From a virus (Duplodnaviria > Heunggongvirae > Uroviricota > Caudoviricetes), in IMG/VR virus record IMGVR_UViG_2541047712_000002: a stretch of DNA of 64,000 nucleotides; one strand, 5' to 3'. The stretch's first letter is position 1. Every line of letters begins with the position of its first letter. Made by a program: the position numbers. Positions 1 through 48,000 of this stretch are shown piece after piece.

Positions 1-3000
1 GTTTACTTCCACAGCCTGTTCTGGCCTGCCATGCTGGAAGGCAGCAACTTCCGCAAGCCGACCAACCTGTTTGTTCACGGCTATGTGACGGTGAACGGCG
101 CGAAGATGTCCAAGTCTCGCGGCACCTTTATTAAAGCCAGCACCTGGCTGAATCATTTTGACGCCGACAGCCTGCGTTACTACTACACTGCGAAACTCTC
201 TTCGCGCATTGATGATATCGATCTCAACCTGGAGGATTTCGTTCAGCGCGTGAATGCCGATATCGTGAACAAAGTGGTTAACCTGGCCTCCCGTAATGCA
301 GGCTTTATCAACAAGCGTTTTGACGGCGTGCTGGCAAGCGAACTGGCTGACCCGCAACTGTACAAAACCTTTACTGATGCCGCTGAAGTGATTGGCGAAG
401 CATGGGAAAGCCGCGAATTTGGTAAAGCTATCCGTGAAATCATGGCATTGGCTGACCTGGCTAACCGCTATGTCGATGAACAGGCTCCGTGGGTGGTGGC
501 GAAGCAGGAAGGACGCGATGCCGATCTGCAGGCGATTTGCTCTATGGGCATTAACCTGTTCCGCGTGCTGATGACGTACCTGAAGCCGGTACTGCCGAAA
601 CTGACTGAACGTGCAGAAGCATTCCTGAATACAGAACTGACCTGGGATGGTATCCAGCAACCGCTGCTGGGCCATAAAGTGAATCCGTTCAAGGCACTGT
701 ATAACCGCATCGATATGAAGCAGGTTGAAGCACTGGTGGAAGCATCCAAAGAAGAAGTGAAAGCCACAGCCGCACCGGTAACTGGCCCACTGGCTGACGA
801 CCCGATTCAGGAAACTATCACCTTTGACGACTTCGCCAAAGTTGACCTGCGCGTGGCGCTGATTGAAAACGCAGAGTTTGTAGAAGGTTCTGACAAACTG
901 CTTCGCCTGACGCTGGATCTCGGTGGTGAAAAGCGTAATGTCTTCTCAGGCATCCGTTCCGCTTATCCAGATCCACAGGCACTGATTGGTCGTCACACCA
1001 TTATGGTGGCTAACCTGGCACCACGTAAAATGCGCTTCGGTATCTCTGAAGGCATGGTGATGGCTGCTGGCCCCGGCGGGAAAGATATCTTCCTGTTAAG
1101 CCCGGATGCTGGTGCTAAACCTGGCCACCAGGTTAAGTAATTAAACAACCTCTCTTCGCAATGCCCGGCAACACGCCGGGCATTTTCATATAGACACAAT
1201 CCCTTCTGATTTACACAGTACCTAAAACAATTTGTTTTCTGCCTTTTGTTGATGGAGATAATAAACCACATAAGAAAACAACTTGTTTTGGAGTGGTTGA
1301 AATGTTGAACATTACCCAAGCCTACCAGGTAGCATTGATCAGCTCATCTCATACATCAGAGGAAGATGCTCGCCGATTCATGATCGCAAGCAATGAGCTG
1401 GATTGGGTTTCACAAATTGAGTACGGTTGCATTGTCCACGCCGGGTTACAGGACGATGACTGGAAAGATGAGTTGCGTCGATATGGTATATCCGAGGGCG
1501 CGATTGCGAACATTCAGAAAGTACTTGATGTAGGCTTTGACTCTGTACATTTTGATTGTGGTGCACCGGTCGTTGAAGGGCTAGAGTGCTGGCAATGGTA
1601 ATCCGGCAATCGCTTCATACTAGACAACGGAGAATTTATGCTTAAAGAAGACTCATATCTACTAAAGGCGCTTGAAATGCGTGGCGTTGAACCTACAGTG
1701 AAAAACGCTCACGATATCTACCTTCAGTTTTCACCGGAGCTGAAACGGTTCATAAATCAATACGGGGTTAATGACTCAAGTGTTAAAGCAATGATAGATG
1801 ATGAATTAGACCATCTCATCTAATCGTTTCCTATGATAATGGTTTTCACTTTGAGATTGTTATTTTTCATAGCTAAAGCTGATGTTTGTGGAAGGTGGAT
1901 TGATAAACGGATGCGTATTTAGGTTATACAAGTGAGAAAATTGATAATATATAAACGCGATTTTTATGTGATGGAATGGATGTGATGGAAACCCAGAACC
2001 AACAAACAAAACCTCTGAATAACATTTATGCGTGGATTCTAGCGTTCATGCCTTTCTTCTTTGGAGTATCGCCGGAAGAGTATACCAATTACGCTATTAT
2101 AATTGGGGGTGTAACTACCATCGGTTTGTTAGTAGCTGACAGAATGGCTCTATCGGAGTCTGGCTGTGAACCACCTTCAATTCTATGGGGGGTATTCCTC
2201 CTGCCTGTCTATCTCTGGAAGCGCGCGACTATTACAAAAGGCAGCAGAGTGCCATTTATCATAATCGTTGCGTCGCTGGCTTGGGTTATCTTCATCGGCA
2301 TCCCACACAAGGACGAGGTTGCTCTTGAAGAAGCAGCCTGCCCTCTCGTGACAACTATTCTGAAAGAGAATAACGGTTCGACTGCACCAAAATGTATGAA
2401 GGTGACAATAGAGGACAAGGTGACGGATAAGTTCTATAGAGCAACGGCTACACTAGACAATGGTAATGACATTAACATTACTCTGGAACTTACCGGCGAC
2501 AGGAACTTCTACGTCCGTGTTCCAAATGTTTATCTGAACAACTAACGGTTGCAACTCATTGATAATGGCGGTCACAATTTGATTCTTTTCTATAAGAATC
2601 CGTTGATCGCCACTACTCCCCTTCCATACCCGCAATCACATCCTTAAATATCAATAAGTTATAGTTGTTTATACAATCAAGAAAACAACTGAATAACAGA
2701 TCAACGAAACATCAACGCTTTCACCCGATTTGGTCTAAAAAATTGACGTTTTCACACATCACTGCTTATACCCGTAATTCTACGCAGCAGACAGCGCCAC
2801 AGCGTCCAATTTTCACCACAGACGACCCAACACACTACCAACAAAAACACACGCTCAAAATCGTTCCCGTTGCGTTACATAACCATATAAACAACTTATT
2901 TTCAGGCATAACAAAACAACTAAATAACACATATGCCATTCCCAAAACAACCAACCTCTTTATGGCAGGCTACCGAAAAGACCCACCTCTTCTTCCCAGG

Positions 3001-45000: not shown

Positions 45001-48000
45001 CCTAAAATCGCTTCAGGGTAGAGCTGAGTTTGTAGTGGTAGATGCTGGTGGCTTCGACTCCGAAATTCAGCGACAAGCGATGCTGATGGCTGACGTTATC
45101 ATTATCCCGCTGCGTCCTAAGCGTCGTGATTTGAAATCTTTACGTGACATCGATCCTATTATCGACAATGTTCGCAATGTAAACGATAAAGTGAAGGTCC
45201 GCGCGGTCATGAACCAGTGCCCGGCTTTGCCATCACAAGTGTCTCGCATTCTGGCGGCTAAAGAGATTGTTGAGACGTTTGGAATCGAGTCTGCGCCAGT
45301 CAATCTATATAACCGCAACGTCTATGATGATGCGGAAGAGTCTGGTCGTTCTATCTTTGAAATGACCGGTAGCGAGCGCGACAAAAAGGCGGAAGCCGAG
45401 TTTGAAGAATTTGTAGATTATCTGTTGAGTCTGGAGGAAGAAGAATAATGTCCATGAAAATGGGTGACCTAGCAAAGCGCAAAGAGCCTGATGCACCGGC
45501 TAAGAACACAACTCCTTTGCGCCAACCAGTCAGACCACAAGGACGCCCGACTCGTGGCAAAGAGAAAATTAAAAGCCGCACTATGTCACTGGAAGACGAA
45601 TACTTCGAGCTTCTGGAAATGATGAAGTTTATCCCTCGTTTCGAGAAGTTCACCCGCTCTGATGTGATTCGTGCTGCTATTTTCCATCTGGCAGAGAAGT
45701 CACCGCAGGAAATCGAGGACATCGTAAAGCTGAACGAGGCGATCACAGCTGCCGATGTCACGATGCGTACCGATGAAATTAAACGCGAGTTGATGAAGAA
45801 AGGTTAATAATGTGGGCTGTCTAGCCCACATTATTTTAATTAAAGTGGAGTGATAATTATGCATTCGTTAGTATTTGCATTTAAAAACATACTCAAGAAT
45901 GTTATAAACATACTAGGGATGTTAAATATTTTTTTGTCTGTGAGGGTGAGGAGAAAAGATATAAAAGATAAATTAAAGGAACTTAACAAAGAAAAAGAAC
46001 AATTAAAAAGCGAAGAAATTATTATTGATTTATACAAGAAAAAACTCGCATCTAGCAAGGGGAAAGCTAATGATAAAATCAAAGGAAAAATAATTCACTA
46101 TATTATTGCTAGAGAGTTGGGGAATGATCCTGATAATGAAGATTTGCGACATAATCTTTTTACAAAGATAAAAGAATCAGAAGAACAGGTTGAAGTTCTG
46201 GTTCATCAAAGAGAAGTAAGTGAGCAGGCGAACAAAAAAGAAACGGTTGTCAATTTGTTTTTATTGTATGAAAAAAATAAATTGTTTAAAGCTAAGGGGT
46301 TGGCTGTGTTTCTTATAGTTATAAACTTAATTATAGTTGCGACTCTCGATCTTCCAGCTTGGTCATTGATTATAAGTTTTTTTATTCTCTCTTTGATTAT
46401 GTTGAAAGATCAGATACTTACTATTCGTGTCTCTAAAGGATATTTTGGCACAAGTGCGTATGAAGCGGTTCAATTGCTTAAATTCATCAGAGAAAATTCA
46501 GACAAATTTGACTCAGATGATAATGACGGTAGCCCACGACGGATATTGAATCCGAAGGGAACAACAAAAAAATCAGACAACCTATTCGATAAAGGGTGGC
46601 AAAATGTTTGACCTTGACGCCATCACTAAGTTCTTAAATCAGTGTTTTGATCTACTTTTGCTCAAGCAGCCTTTAAGAACTGTTTTCGGAATACTGATTG
46701 GTTTCATTATTTTTGTTTTTGTTTACACGTTTAGGTTTGCGATAGCTCAAGATTTTTATGAAATAGATGGTGTGCATTACGCTGCATGTTTCGTCATCGG
46801 TGTTTTAGTTGTTCACACAAGAACATTTTTTGACGTTATCAAGGGCACCGCAGTTGATGAAGAAATAGATAGTATGATCAGAGTTATTACGAAGCAGCCA
46901 CACCTATCTAACCATCAAAAAAACATAATGATTGCTGAAATACTTCAAAAAGAAATTGCAGCCATAAGTCAAAAGAGATTGGATAAAGTTGCACAAGAAA
47001 TAACGGAGAAAAAGACAACTGATTAATTTAATTACCTGTTTCTGTATATAAATAATAAGTAACTTATTAAATATATATACGGAAGCAGGTCTTTTAAAAG
47101 ACACCCACCAGAACAACTCCCTTCCGTTTCCACTTCCAAAAACTGCCACCAGTCGCTATCATCCGCTCATTGTGATAAGTAAGTAACTACCTACCAGGTG
47201 AGCCACATGAGCCAAATCTTTTTCGATACCATCGACAACAACCAGTACGACTTCATGACAGAGTGGAATACCGCTGTTATGGACAAGTGGGTTGCTGAAA
47301 ACATTGGTTTGTCGCGCTGTAAAGACGAGGCTGAACTCTTCGAGACGAAGTGGTTTGATTATCGCGACATGCATCCTCTCATGGCCACCTGTCTTTTTAC
47401 GGAGGCATACAAACGTCAGTACTCAAATATCATGCTGACGCACGGTCGCGAACACTTTGAAACAGCTCCGTTCACCACCGGGTTAAAACGTCTGCCTTAT
47501 CAGGAGTTGTCGACTGCCAACAAAACGTCGCTATGGAAAGCACGCCAGTTTGCGGATCGCTATTGCTGCTCATACGACTACTTTATCTCCACCGTTCTTT
47601 CCGCAGCTGCACGACGGCTGTGGGACAAGCTGCCGCGCCCACAGCATTTGTGGCAGCCAGAACTGATTGAGATATTTGAAGAGAAATTAGCCAGACGCGC
47701 AACAACCCGTCTGGATGACTCTCTTGTTAGCTTTAAGCATATGGGAGACATGCAGTTCAACCCGATTCAGGAAAGCTATTTTGAGTGGATTCTGGAGCGT
47801 TTGCGCACCATCCCTCGCAGCAAGCGCATACGCGCAATTTTCTCCGCTATCTGGCTAATGGAAATCGTTCCAGAGCGCCTTATTTCCGCCCACTTTCCAG
47901 AAGAACTGGAAGAAGCACGGCGGTTTATTGATCCCCTATCTAATTAACTAATACTAGAAAACAATTTGTTTAAAAAACAAAGGAAAGCACATGACCGAAC

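What the first reader, a model, noticed from the sequence alone, without database searches (positions are those of the whole stretch)
1223..47973. Dispersed 17-bp palindrome GAAAACAA-N-TTGTTTTC sits directly 5' of the RBS of at least ten genes across four modules
Copies at 1223, 1274, 4080, 4564, 5467, 6231, 16470, 16495, 44730 and 47957 (degenerate half-sites near 2681 and 49371). Each lies about 10-35 bp upstream of a start codon and is often preceded by a TATAAT-like element 7-10 bp upstream. The pattern fits a promoter with an operator over the transcription start, controlled by one dimeric regulator, as in phage-plasmids with dispersed operators; alternatively it forms a conserved 5'-leader hairpin. 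I do not recognise it as a site for any host regulator, and no repressor gene is identified.
Basis: seen in the sequence. Interest (0 to 1): 0.75.

Follow-up and report, generated by a model that had tools for sequence, protein, structure and literature searches.

The report
Dispersed operator motif in SSU5-like phage-plasmid
A short DNA palindrome (AAACAA-N-TTGTTT) sits at a fixed distance from the promoters of about twenty transcription units in a widespread family of phage-plasmids, which looks like the operator set of one so-far unidentified global repressor.

Summary
All ten copies are at the stated coordinates and are far above chance: 10 PWM hits versus 0.07 expected, and 6 exact 13-bp cores versus 0.02.

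The window is an E. coli SSU5-like phage-plasmid (97-98% identical to phage Cyrano/pLF82). The motif (M1) is family-wide. There are 17-21 copies each in Cyrano, SSU5 and two divergent Klebsiella plasmids, at orthologous promoters.

The stated 17-bp palindrome never occurs exactly. The symmetric core is 13 bp, AAACAA-N-TTGTTT, with asymmetric flanks (GA...AA). It occurs in two orientations:
- Forward copies lie 11-13 nt downstream of a -10-like hexamer.
- Reverse copies end exactly 17 nt upstream of an often extended -10.
- Doublets flank the -10, 51 bp apart.

This geometry, the weak RNA hairpins and silent M1 genes in a lysogen transcriptome favour a DNA operator.

The regulator is unresolved. 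Candidates are:
- the ParA partner, RHH-like by sequence pattern only;
- a conserved 88-aa winged-helix protein;
- acting on RNA, an FljA-family protein that I model as a tandem Sm/Hfq-like fold.

A second, lineage-variable palindrome (M2) marks other promoters. Verdict: a new member of a known kind, of moderate interest.

The parts
1223..1239 (.). M1 copy, reverse form (TAAAACAATTTGTTTTC). It ends 17 nt upstream of the -10 GATAAT (1257-1262). Upstream member of a doublet.
1274..1290 (.). M1 copy, forward form. It lies 11 nt downstream of GATAAT and 11 nt before the ATG at 1302 (DUF5983 gene). It is 51 bp centre to centre from the 1223 copy.
2887..2903 (.). Degenerate M1 copy (ATAAACAACTTATTTTC, score 16.5) inside an A/C-rich non-coding stretch. 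The orthologous site in SSU5 is strong, and the equivalent Klebsiella gap holds strong sites.
4080..4096 (.). M1 forward copy, 11 nt downstream of the extended -10 TGcGATAAT. The ATG is at 4107.
4564..4580 (.). M1 forward copy, 12 nt downstream of the extended -10 TGgTATTAT. The ATG is at 4590.
5467..5483 (.). M1 reverse copy directly after a terminator hairpin. It ends 17 nt upstream of TGtGAAAAT (-10 at 5501-5506). The likely gene start is 5541.
6231..6247 (.). M1 forward copy, 12 nt downstream of GATAAT. The ATG is at 6266.
16470..16486 (.). M1 forward copy, 11 nt downstream of CCTAAT. First of the doublet in front of the small terminase gene, about 54 bp inside the end of the linear Cyrano record.
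16495..16511 (.). Second M1 copy of the terS doublet (25 bp from the first). It is followed by a conserved hairpin or terminator-like element at 16510-16531 and then terS (ATG 16550).
44730..44746 (.). M1 forward copy in the parA promoter region. It is a conserved island across four lineages. The ATG is at 44780.
47957..47973 (.). M1 forward copy, 12 nt downstream of TCTAAT, in front of the DnaB-like helicase gene (ATG 47991). It is a conserved island across four lineages.
45448..45807 (+). Candidate regulator A: 119-aa partner of the small ParA (44780-45448). It has a basic tail followed by a strand-helix-helix pattern, KSRTMSLEDEYF...TRSDVIRAAI. The ribbon-helix-helix reading is an inference from sequence only. 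The gene is transcribed from an M1 promoter.
16088..16354 (+). Candidate regulator B: 88-aa winged-helix protein, 74-89% conserved across all lineages examined.
8859..9380 (-). Candidate regulator C, acting on RNA: an FljA-family protein (PF03614). Its model is a tandem Sm/Hfq-like fold with no HTH.

Best explanation
M1 is a double-stranded DNA operator. Its 13-bp symmetric core, AAACAA-N-TTGTTT, is placed where a bound protein would exclude RNA polymerase from sigma-70 promoters, many of them with an extended -10. It lies either over the early transcribed region (centre about +14), or over the -35 region (centre about -38), or at both positions 51 bp (about five helical turns) apart.

About twenty such promoters per genome head the late operon (terS), the replication helicase, nrdB, cobT, parA and a cluster of small early genes. 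One element-encoded repressor would therefore hold most of the lytic and replication programme down in the plasmid-prophage state.

Shown: the motif, its enrichment, its conservation and its fixed geometry relative to -10 elements.

Inferred: the transcription start positions, repression as the effect, and who binds.

My ranking of binders:
1. The small ParA partner. It looks ribbon-helix-helix-like, is autoregulated from an M1 promoter, and is expressed in lysogens. If it binds, M1 could also serve as a dispersed centromere, as with omega of pSM19035 or KorB of RK2.
2. The conserved 88-aa winged-helix protein.
3. Another element protein or a host protein.
For: Enrichment.

Family-wide conservation at orthologous promoters:
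- Present in Cyrano, SSU5, Klebsiella pCAVP366-109, Klebsiella sp. PO552 p2 and pMT1.
- The site is an island of identity in otherwise diverged dnaB and parA promoter regions.

Geometry:
- The forward form has a -10 at 11-13 nt in 21 of 39 sites, against about 21% in controls.
- The reverse form has a -10 at exactly 17 nt in 10 of 15 sites, against about 7% in controls.
- The reverse form is the exact reverse complement of the forward form, and the GA end always faces the -10.
- Doublets bracket the -10.

Against an RNA hairpin: no hairpin signature.

Cyrano lysogen RNA-seq (PMC9928086, table S1):
- M1-headed genes sit near the background of 9.8 (terS 7, cobT 8, nrdB 13, dnaB 21).
- The parA operon, which encodes candidate A, is at 50-89.

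Candidate A: its putative DNA-reading strand, (K/R)SRT(M/I)S, is conserved although the protein is only 33-51% identical overall.

Against: - No binding or transcription-start data exist, so all promoter positions are predictions.
- Many -10 hexamers lack the canonical A at position 2. The consensus promoter scan finds no excess of full sigma-70 promoters.
- Most forward sites also abut the Shine-Dalgarno sequence: 22 of 36 end 9-20 nt before the start codon. That would equally suit a translational operator.
- Candidate A's fold is only a sequence-pattern inference, with no Pfam or PDB match.
- Candidate B is at background expression in lysogens (7.8).
- pMT1 keeps intact sites without candidate A, although it is probably too young for that to be informative.
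- parA must be expressed in lysogens yet carries a site.
Confidence: 0.6

Rival explanations
1. M1 works in the mRNA. It would be the operator of the element's FljA-family protein, a tandem Sm/Hfq-like RNA binder. That protein would bind the A-rich and U-rich halves just 5' of the Shine-Dalgarno sequence, block translation and destabilise the message, as FljA does on fliC mRNA. The A/C-rich non-coding stretch at 2680-3400, which carries half-sites, could be a decoy RNA.
For: - The window encodes a full-length PF03614 protein (E 1e-68), present in 835 PLSDB plasmids and in all SSU5-like phages.
- Most forward sites end 9-20 nt before the start codon.
- The Salmonella fliC leader shares the octamer CAAGTTGT next to its SD.
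- The protein is expressed in lysogens at about twice background, and more in other conditions.
Against: - A third of the sites are in reverse orientation at a fixed 17 nt upstream of the -10, outside the predicted transcript.
- The fliC leader scores 1.4 on the M1 matrix.
- The hairpins are weak and there is no G-U bias.
- M1 is invariant in lineages where the FljA-like protein has diverged to 36-38% and 25-26% identity.
- The A/C-rich stretch holds only four AAAACAA half-sites, which its composition could explain.
Confidence: 0.15
2. M1 is a site for a conserved host protein of Enterobacterales, either a nucleoid-associated protein or a global regulator, that the element has recruited.
For: - The core is invariant across elements from Escherichia, Salmonella, Klebsiella and Yersinia, while a second motif (M2) changes with lineage.
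- From memory only, the core resembles the lambda H' IHF core (TATCAATTTGTTG) at 10 of 13 positions.
Against: - No site variant drifts towards the IHF consensus ATCAA.
- I could recall no host regulator consensus that fits. KdgR, TyrR, PurR and PhoP differ in spacing or symmetry (memory only).
- There are zero hits in 672 kb of Enterobacterales chromosomal DNA, although that is a small sample.
Confidence: 0.1
3. The motif has no reader of its own. It would be a passenger in a promoter cassette that spread by duplication among the small early genes.
For: - Reverse-form modules share extra sequence: a terminator, then TTCTTAACGCC, then the motif, then TGCCTT.
- Several early-gene promoters are clearly paralogous.
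Against: - The 13-bp core stays intact while the spacers and flanks of the same cassettes diverge.
- It is also found at non-paralogous promoters (terS, parA, dnaB, cobT, nrdB) and in both orientations.
Confidence: 0.05

Closest known systems
Phage-plasmid P1 C1 repressor and its dispersed operators
   Same: Both are plasmid prophages. In each, one short operator sequence is scattered over many promoters and controls unrelated functions such as replication, late control and accessory genes.
   Different: The P1 operator is an asymmetric 17-mer (ATTGCTCTAATAAATTT, from memory), not a 13-bp palindrome. I did not search for a C1 homologue. Here the sites have two fixed positions relative to the -10.
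RK2 (IncP) KorB global regulon
   Same: Both use a 13-bp palindrome with a free central base, present in a dozen or more promoter regions of a plasmid. In RK2 it is read by the partition protein that works with a ParA (IncC), which links partition and global repression.
   Different: The KorB site is TTTAGC(G/C)GCTAAA, and KorB is a ParB-family HTH protein. These are established facts recalled from memory, not tested here. The ParA partner here is a small non-ParB protein. The element's two ParB_N proteins (13163-14529) sit elsewhere and have no M1 site at their own promoter.
Omega of pSM19035 and ParG of TP228 (ribbon-helix-helix centromere binders that are also repressors)
   Same: Both have a small ParA plus a small partner with a flexible basic tail. 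The binding units are about 7 bp and can be arranged head to head. The M1 half-sites are 7 bp apart. The protein represses its own par operon and other promoters.
   Different: Omega binds arrays of 7-10 heptads at three promoters. M1 is a single pair per site, or two pairs, at about twenty promoters. The RHH fold of the protein here is inferred, not shown.
FljA and the fliC mRNA operator (Salmonella flagellar phase variation)
   Same: A family member is encoded in the element. The operator lies between the promoter and the Shine-Dalgarno sequence.
   Different: The fliC leader does not match M1 (score 1.4). M1 also occurs upstream of promoters in reverse orientation. Here there are about twenty targets instead of one.

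Membership tests
P1 C1-type operator regulon | Operator matches the asymmetric 17-bp C1 consensus | tested here: not met
   M1 is a 13-bp palindrome, AAACAA-N-TTGTTT. The C1 consensus is recalled from memory.
P1 C1-type operator regulon | C1-family repressor encoded in the element | not tested
   No search for C1 homologues was run. None is annotated in Cyrano or SSU5.
KorB/ParB-type global regulon | Sites read by a ParB-family protein with an HTH, whose own operon carries a site | tested here: inconclusive
   Two ParB_N proteins are present. There is no M1 site at their promoter, which carries the M2 motif at 13145. Binding is not testable with these tools.
RHH centromere-binder / global repressor (omega, ParG) | Small partner gene directly downstream of a small Walker-type ParA | tested here: met
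   The ParA is 222 aa with MipZ/CbiA/ParA domains. The 119-aa partner overlaps its stop codon.
RHH centromere-binder / global repressor (omega, ParG) | Ribbon-helix-helix fold | tested here: inconclusive
   There is no Pfam or PDB sequence match. The strand-helix-helix pattern and conserved strand were seen by eye only.
RHH centromere-binder / global repressor (omega, ParG) | Binding sites in its own promoter | tested here: met
   An M1 site at 44730 lies 33 nt before the parA start and is conserved in four lineages. That the protein binds it is not shown.
FljA-type mRNA operator | FljA-family (PF03614) protein encoded | tested here: met
   E 1.4e-68 over the full length.
FljA-type mRNA operator | Operator sequence resembles the fliC leader operator region | tested here: not met
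   The best match in the Salmonella fliC leader scores 1.4, against 17.5-25.4 for strong sites. Only CAAGTTGT is shared.
FljA-type mRNA operator | All sites lie within the regulated transcript | tested here: not met
   Reverse-form sites end 17 nt upstream of the -10. Start sites are predicted, not measured.
Structured 5'-leader RNA element | Stable hairpin with compensatory or G-U variation | tested here: not met
   Leader folds give z -1.9 to +0.7, and the palindrome is absent from four of six minimum-energy structures. G-U versus A-C mismatches are 10 versus 6. There is no Rfam hit.
Sigma-70 promoter with overlapping operator | -10 element at a fixed distance from the site | tested here: met
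   11-13 nt in 21 of 39 forward sites and 17 nt in 10 of 15 reverse sites, against 21% and 7% in controls.
Sigma-70 promoter with overlapping operator | Measured transcription start and repression | not testable with these tools
   Only indirect support exists: M1-headed genes are near background in Cyrano lysogen RNA-seq.

The most novel reading that the evidence does not exclude
The partition system and the lysis-lysogeny programme are wired together. In this reading, the small ParA partner reads about twenty dispersed M1 sites both as a scattered centromere and as operators that silence replication, early and late promoters. Plasmid segregation and prophage repression would then be one circuit.

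A still bolder alternative is not excluded: the Hfq-like FljA-family protein reads the same sequence in the leaders as a translational operator, buffered by an A/C-rich decoy RNA.
Probability: 0.2. Interest if true: 0.75.

Novelty: new member of a known kind. Interest (0 to 1): 0.5.

Why it matters
SSU5-like phage-plasmids are common in clinical Enterobacteriaceae. They include pHCM2 of S. Typhi, much of pMT1 of Y. pestis and pLF82/Cyrano. About 800 plasmids in PLSDB carry the family's marker genes.

I found no description of how they control lysogeny in the searchable literature.

The motif gives a genome-wide map of one regulon that is invariant across the family. The M2 motif gives a second regulon that varies with lineage, as an immunity specificity would. 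That turns 'how is this prophage kept silent and how is it induced' into a short list of binding and reporter experiments with three named candidate proteins.

The motif could also serve as a cheap sequence marker for the family's promoters when annotating new elements.

Tried and rejected
1. Exact-pattern scan of IMG/VR. It returned mostly single chance matches. Only one 44.6-kb contig had many copies, and it was not followed.
2. fliC leader test. The genome scan returned Salmonella arizonae and diarizonae, Citrobacter and others. No leader matched M1, so the link to FljA's known target failed.
3. The primary FljA papers (Yamamoto & Kutsukake 2006; Bonifield & Hughes 2003) are not held. Their mechanism is cited second-hand from PMC4122451 and PMC2652032.
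4. Covariation test with FljA-like proteins at 36-38% and 25-26% identity. M1 did not change, which argues against the FljA-like protein rather than for it.
5. pMT1 as a natural knockout of ParA and its partner. Seven M1 sites are intact, but the plasmid is too similar to pHCM2-type elements for decay to be expected, so the result is uninformative.
6. The CYRAN_45 HTH 'master repressor' (just outside the window). Its own promoter carries an M2-like palindrome (GGTAAGTGCTTACC) and no M1. It is also absent from SSU5, which keeps M1. I rejected it as the M1 reader.
7. Pfam scans of 30 conserved small proteins found no further HTH.
8. Host-factor look-alikes (IHF, KdgR, TyrR, PurR, PhoP, CpxR) were considered from memory. 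All were rejected on spacing or symmetry.
9. Half-site array as centromere or decoy in 2680-3400. There are only four AAAACAA, explicable by 40% A and 32% C.
10. The generic promoter scan finds no excess of full sigma-70 promoters. This fits weak or absent -35 elements but does not help to place start sites.

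
Full report
**What the window is.** The first 8 kb match Escherichia phage Cyrano (pLF82), CMS-2020a and PhiR41_1 at 94-98% identity. They also match about 750 plasmids of Escherichia, Klebsiella, Enterobacter, Yersinia and Salmonella. The window corresponds to Cyrano 91890-108379 joined to 1-41561, with a few replaced segments. It is therefore a member of the SSU5 group of phage-plasmids. It carries an early cluster of small genes, a minus-strand cluster, a ParB/ABC operon, the structural and lysis genes, parA, replication genes, tRNAs and accessory DNA.

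**Checking the observation.**
- The consensus as written has no exact match.
- With up to three mismatches there are 13 matches against 0.94 expected. These include all ten reported coordinates.
- A symmetrised matrix built from the ten sites scores them at 19-25, well above most other hits. Only 2887 (16.5), 46273 (13.4), 11509 (13.2) and 5602 (10.1) lie between 10 and 19.
- In 200 dinucleotide shuffles the window gives 0.07 hits at score >=17 (10 observed). It gives 0.02 exact 13-bp cores (6 observed).
- 672 kb of unrelated Enterobacterales chromosomal DNA gives no hit at >=15.
- Because the matrix was trained on these sites, the independent evidence is what matters. The same matrix finds 17-19 strong sites in the whole Cyrano genome, 21 in SSU5, and 21 in Klebsiella plasmid pCAVP366-109. 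It finds 18 in Klebsiella sp. PO552 p2 at a score cut-off of 14, and 7 in the SSU5-derived part of pMT1.
- The sites are at orthologous places: a doublet (a single copy in the Klebsiella plasmids) before the small terminase gene, then parA, the DnaB-like helicase, cobT, nrdB and the small early genes.
- In alignments of the dnaB and parA upstream regions from four lineages the motif is an island of identity in diverged sequence.

**What the motif really looks like.** I examined 60 sites from three genomes.
- Positions 3-15 are symmetric (AAACAA-N-TTGTTT). The outer two positions on each side are complementary in only 11-13 sites.
- The sites fall into two forms. GA-core-A(A/C) has 39 sites and TT-core-TC has 21. 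The second form is the reverse complement of the first.
- The motif is thus a 13-bp palindrome with asymmetric flanks, used in both orientations.

**Geometry.**
- The forward form has its best -10-like hexamer (GATAAT, TATTAT, TCTAAT, CACAAT and similar) 11-13 nt upstream in 21 of 39 cases. Random positions give about 21%.
- The reverse form has one (GATAAT, GAAAAT, TAATAT) exactly 17 nt downstream in 10 of 15 cases. Random positions give about 7%.
- Many of these hexamers are preceded by TGn, that is, an extended -10 (read). Recognisable -35 hexamers are lacking, and the generic promoter scan finds none.
- Reverse-form sites often follow a terminator hairpin directly.
- In doublets such as 1223/1274 the two forms bracket the -10 with their GA ends facing it, 51 bp apart.
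- If transcription starts about 7 nt after the hexamer (an inference), the motif covers about +6..+22 or -46..-30.

**DNA or RNA.**
- The reverse-form sites at a fixed distance upstream of the -10 cannot act in the transcript of that promoter.
- Predicted leader RNAs do not fold better than shuffles (z -1.9 to +0.7). The palindrome is absent from four of six minimum-energy structures.
- Mismatched pairs show no preference for G-U over A-C (10 versus 6).
- Rfam finds only two tRNAs in the window.
- On the other hand, 22 of 36 forward sites end 9-20 nt before the start codon. A role in the leader cannot be dismissed on position alone.

**Expression.** The published RNA-seq of the LF82 lysogen (PMC9928086, table S1) bears on this.
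- Genes behind M1 sites sit near the prophage background of 9.8: terS 7, cobT 8, CYRAN_58 6, nrdB 13, CYRAN_101 7, helicase 21.
- The parA operon is at 50-89.
- Extended -10 promoters would be expected to fire unless something holds them down (established knowledge). This fits repression in the lysogen.
- Cyrano is induced 39-fold by ciprofloxacin.

**Who reads it.** I tested several candidates.

1. *The FljA-family protein (8859-9380, minus strand).*
   - It matches PF03614 at E 1e-68 and phrog_1444.
   - This makes it an attractive reader of leader RNA.
   - Against it: the Salmonella fliC leader scores 1.4 on the M1 matrix and shares only CAAGTTGT.
   - Also against it: M1 is unchanged in plasmids whose FljA-like proteins are only 36-38% and 25-26% identical.
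   - Its gene lies in a locally divergent segment, 86% against about 98% nucleotide identity to Cyrano.

   - It is 74-89% identical in all lineages, matching the invariance of M1.
   - It is at background level in the lysogen (7.8).

3. *The 119-aa protein that follows the small ParA (45448-45807).*
   - It has a basic, probably disordered tail followed by KSRTMSLEDEYF...TRSDVIRAAI. I read this as strand-helix-helix, as in ParG or omega. That is an inference only: there is no Pfam or PDB match.
   - The putative strand, (K/R)SRT(M/I)S, is conserved although the proteins are 33-51% identical.
   - The gene is expressed in lysogens (89) and sits behind an M1 promoter.
   - The 7-bp distance between half-site centres suits ribbon-helix-helix dimers better than the roughly 10 bp usual for HTH dimers. 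This rests on established knowledge of omega, Arc and 434, recalled from memory.
   - pMT1 lacks this protein yet keeps seven intact sites. Its shared regions are too similar to pHCM2-type plasmids for decay to be expected.

4. *The CYRAN_45 HTH protein.* The Cyrano authors treat it as the master repressor. It lies just beyond the window. Its own promoter carries the other motif and no M1. It is missing from SSU5.

5. *A host factor* cannot be excluded, but nothing I could recall fits.

**A second motif.** Counting palindromes de novo revealed M2, TA(A/G)GTAAGT..ACTTAC(C/T)TA.
- It has 7 copies in the window (4970, 13145, 25436, 42131, 47176, 50610, 54132). There are 13 in Cyrano, 16 in SSU5 and 12 in pCAVP366-109.
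- It lies in front of other transcription units: tail genes, the lysis cassette, the ParB operon, the gene after the primase, thyX, dam and sbcD.
- It is usually placed just upstream of a -10 such as TGnGAGAAT or TAAGAAT.
- In PO552 p2 the corresponding motif is TATGTA-N6-TACATA (8 copies), while M1 is unchanged.
- M2 therefore varies with lineage, as an immunity specificity would, and M1 does not.
- The family appears to have two interleaved regulons.

**Comparison with known systems.** As a way of working, M1 resembles the dispersed C1 operators of P1, the twelve KorB sites of RK2 and the omega sites of pSM19035. It is a member of none by sequence, and the reader protein is unknown (see the membership table). 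I found no description of either motif or of SSU5-family regulation in the searchable literature.

**Verdict.** The feature is real, strongly non-random and conserved across the family. It is best explained as the operator set of one global repressor acting on DNA (confidence 0.6). The RNA-level reading through the Hfq-like FljA homologue is the main rival (0.15). It is a new member of a known kind of system. It is useful because it makes the unknown control circuit of a clinically widespread phage-plasmid family directly testable.

Noticed in passing
window 4970-4983, 13145-13162, 25436-25453, 42131-42148, 47176-47193, 50610-50627, 54132-54149: A second dispersed palindrome (M2), TA(A/G)GTAAGT..ACTTAC(C/T)TA, lies just upstream of -10-like elements of other transcription units: tail, lysis, the ParB operon and replication-associated genes. 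There are 13-16 copies in Cyrano and SSU5. An M2-like copy sits in the promoter of the CYRAN_45 HTH repressor. In Klebsiella sp. PO552 p2 the motif is TATGTA-N6-TACATA instead, so it varies with lineage, as an immunity operator would.
   Followed up: partly
window 8859-9380 (- strand): The FljA-family protein ('repressor of phase-1 flagellin', PF03614) models as two tandem Sm/Hfq-like domains with a conserved disordered N-terminal peptide and no HTH. This fits the reported RNA-level action of FljA. Its gene sits in a segment that is only 86% identical to Cyrano, while the flanks are about 98% identical.
   Followed up: yes
window 2680-3400: An approximately 720-nt stretch is 40% A, 32% C, 12% G and 16% T on the + strand. 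It has no convincing ORF and starts with a GAAAACAAC half-site. It also holds the degenerate site at 2887. Equivalent unannotated gaps exist in SSU5 (90381-90891) and the Klebsiella plasmid (23083-24626), both with strong M1 sites. It may be a non-coding RNA. There is no Rfam match.
   Followed up: partly
window 16510-16531: A hairpin followed by TGTGTTTTAG (terminator-like) lies between the M1 doublet and the terS start codon. The stem is kept in SSU5 and pMT1. In the Klebsiella plasmid it is kept with different bases but without the T-run. This may be a late-operon leader control element such as antitermination or attenuation.
   Followed up: partly
window 16385-16425: A large AT-rich palindrome, GTATATATAAATAATAAGTAACTTATTAAATATATAC, spans the point where the linear Cyrano and SSU5 records begin (window 16417). 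It probably marks the packaging or cos region. Its centre, ATAAGTAACTTAT, resembles the M2 core.
   Followed up: no
window 7338-7912: Three copies of the hairpin AAAGCGCCCATAGTGGGCGCT occur at 270-271 bp spacing. They flank two small paralogous minus-strand ORFs (7364-7594, 7637-7864), forming a short tandem duplication with terminator-like boundaries.
   Followed up: no
window 13163-16354: A highly conserved operon encodes two ParB_N-domain proteins, two ABC-type ATPases (80-99% identical across lineages) and the 88-aa winged-helix protein. It lies directly upstream of the genome end and terS. Its function is unknown, and it is separate from the ParA partition module at 44780.
   Followed up: partly
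L001 (Cyrano) 40268-40822: In the published LF82 lysogen RNA-seq, CYRAN_43 (184 aa, unknown function, not conserved in SSU5 or Klebsiella) is by far the most expressed Cyrano gene, at about 700 times background. The homologous position in this window falls in the replaced accessory segment.
   Followed up: no
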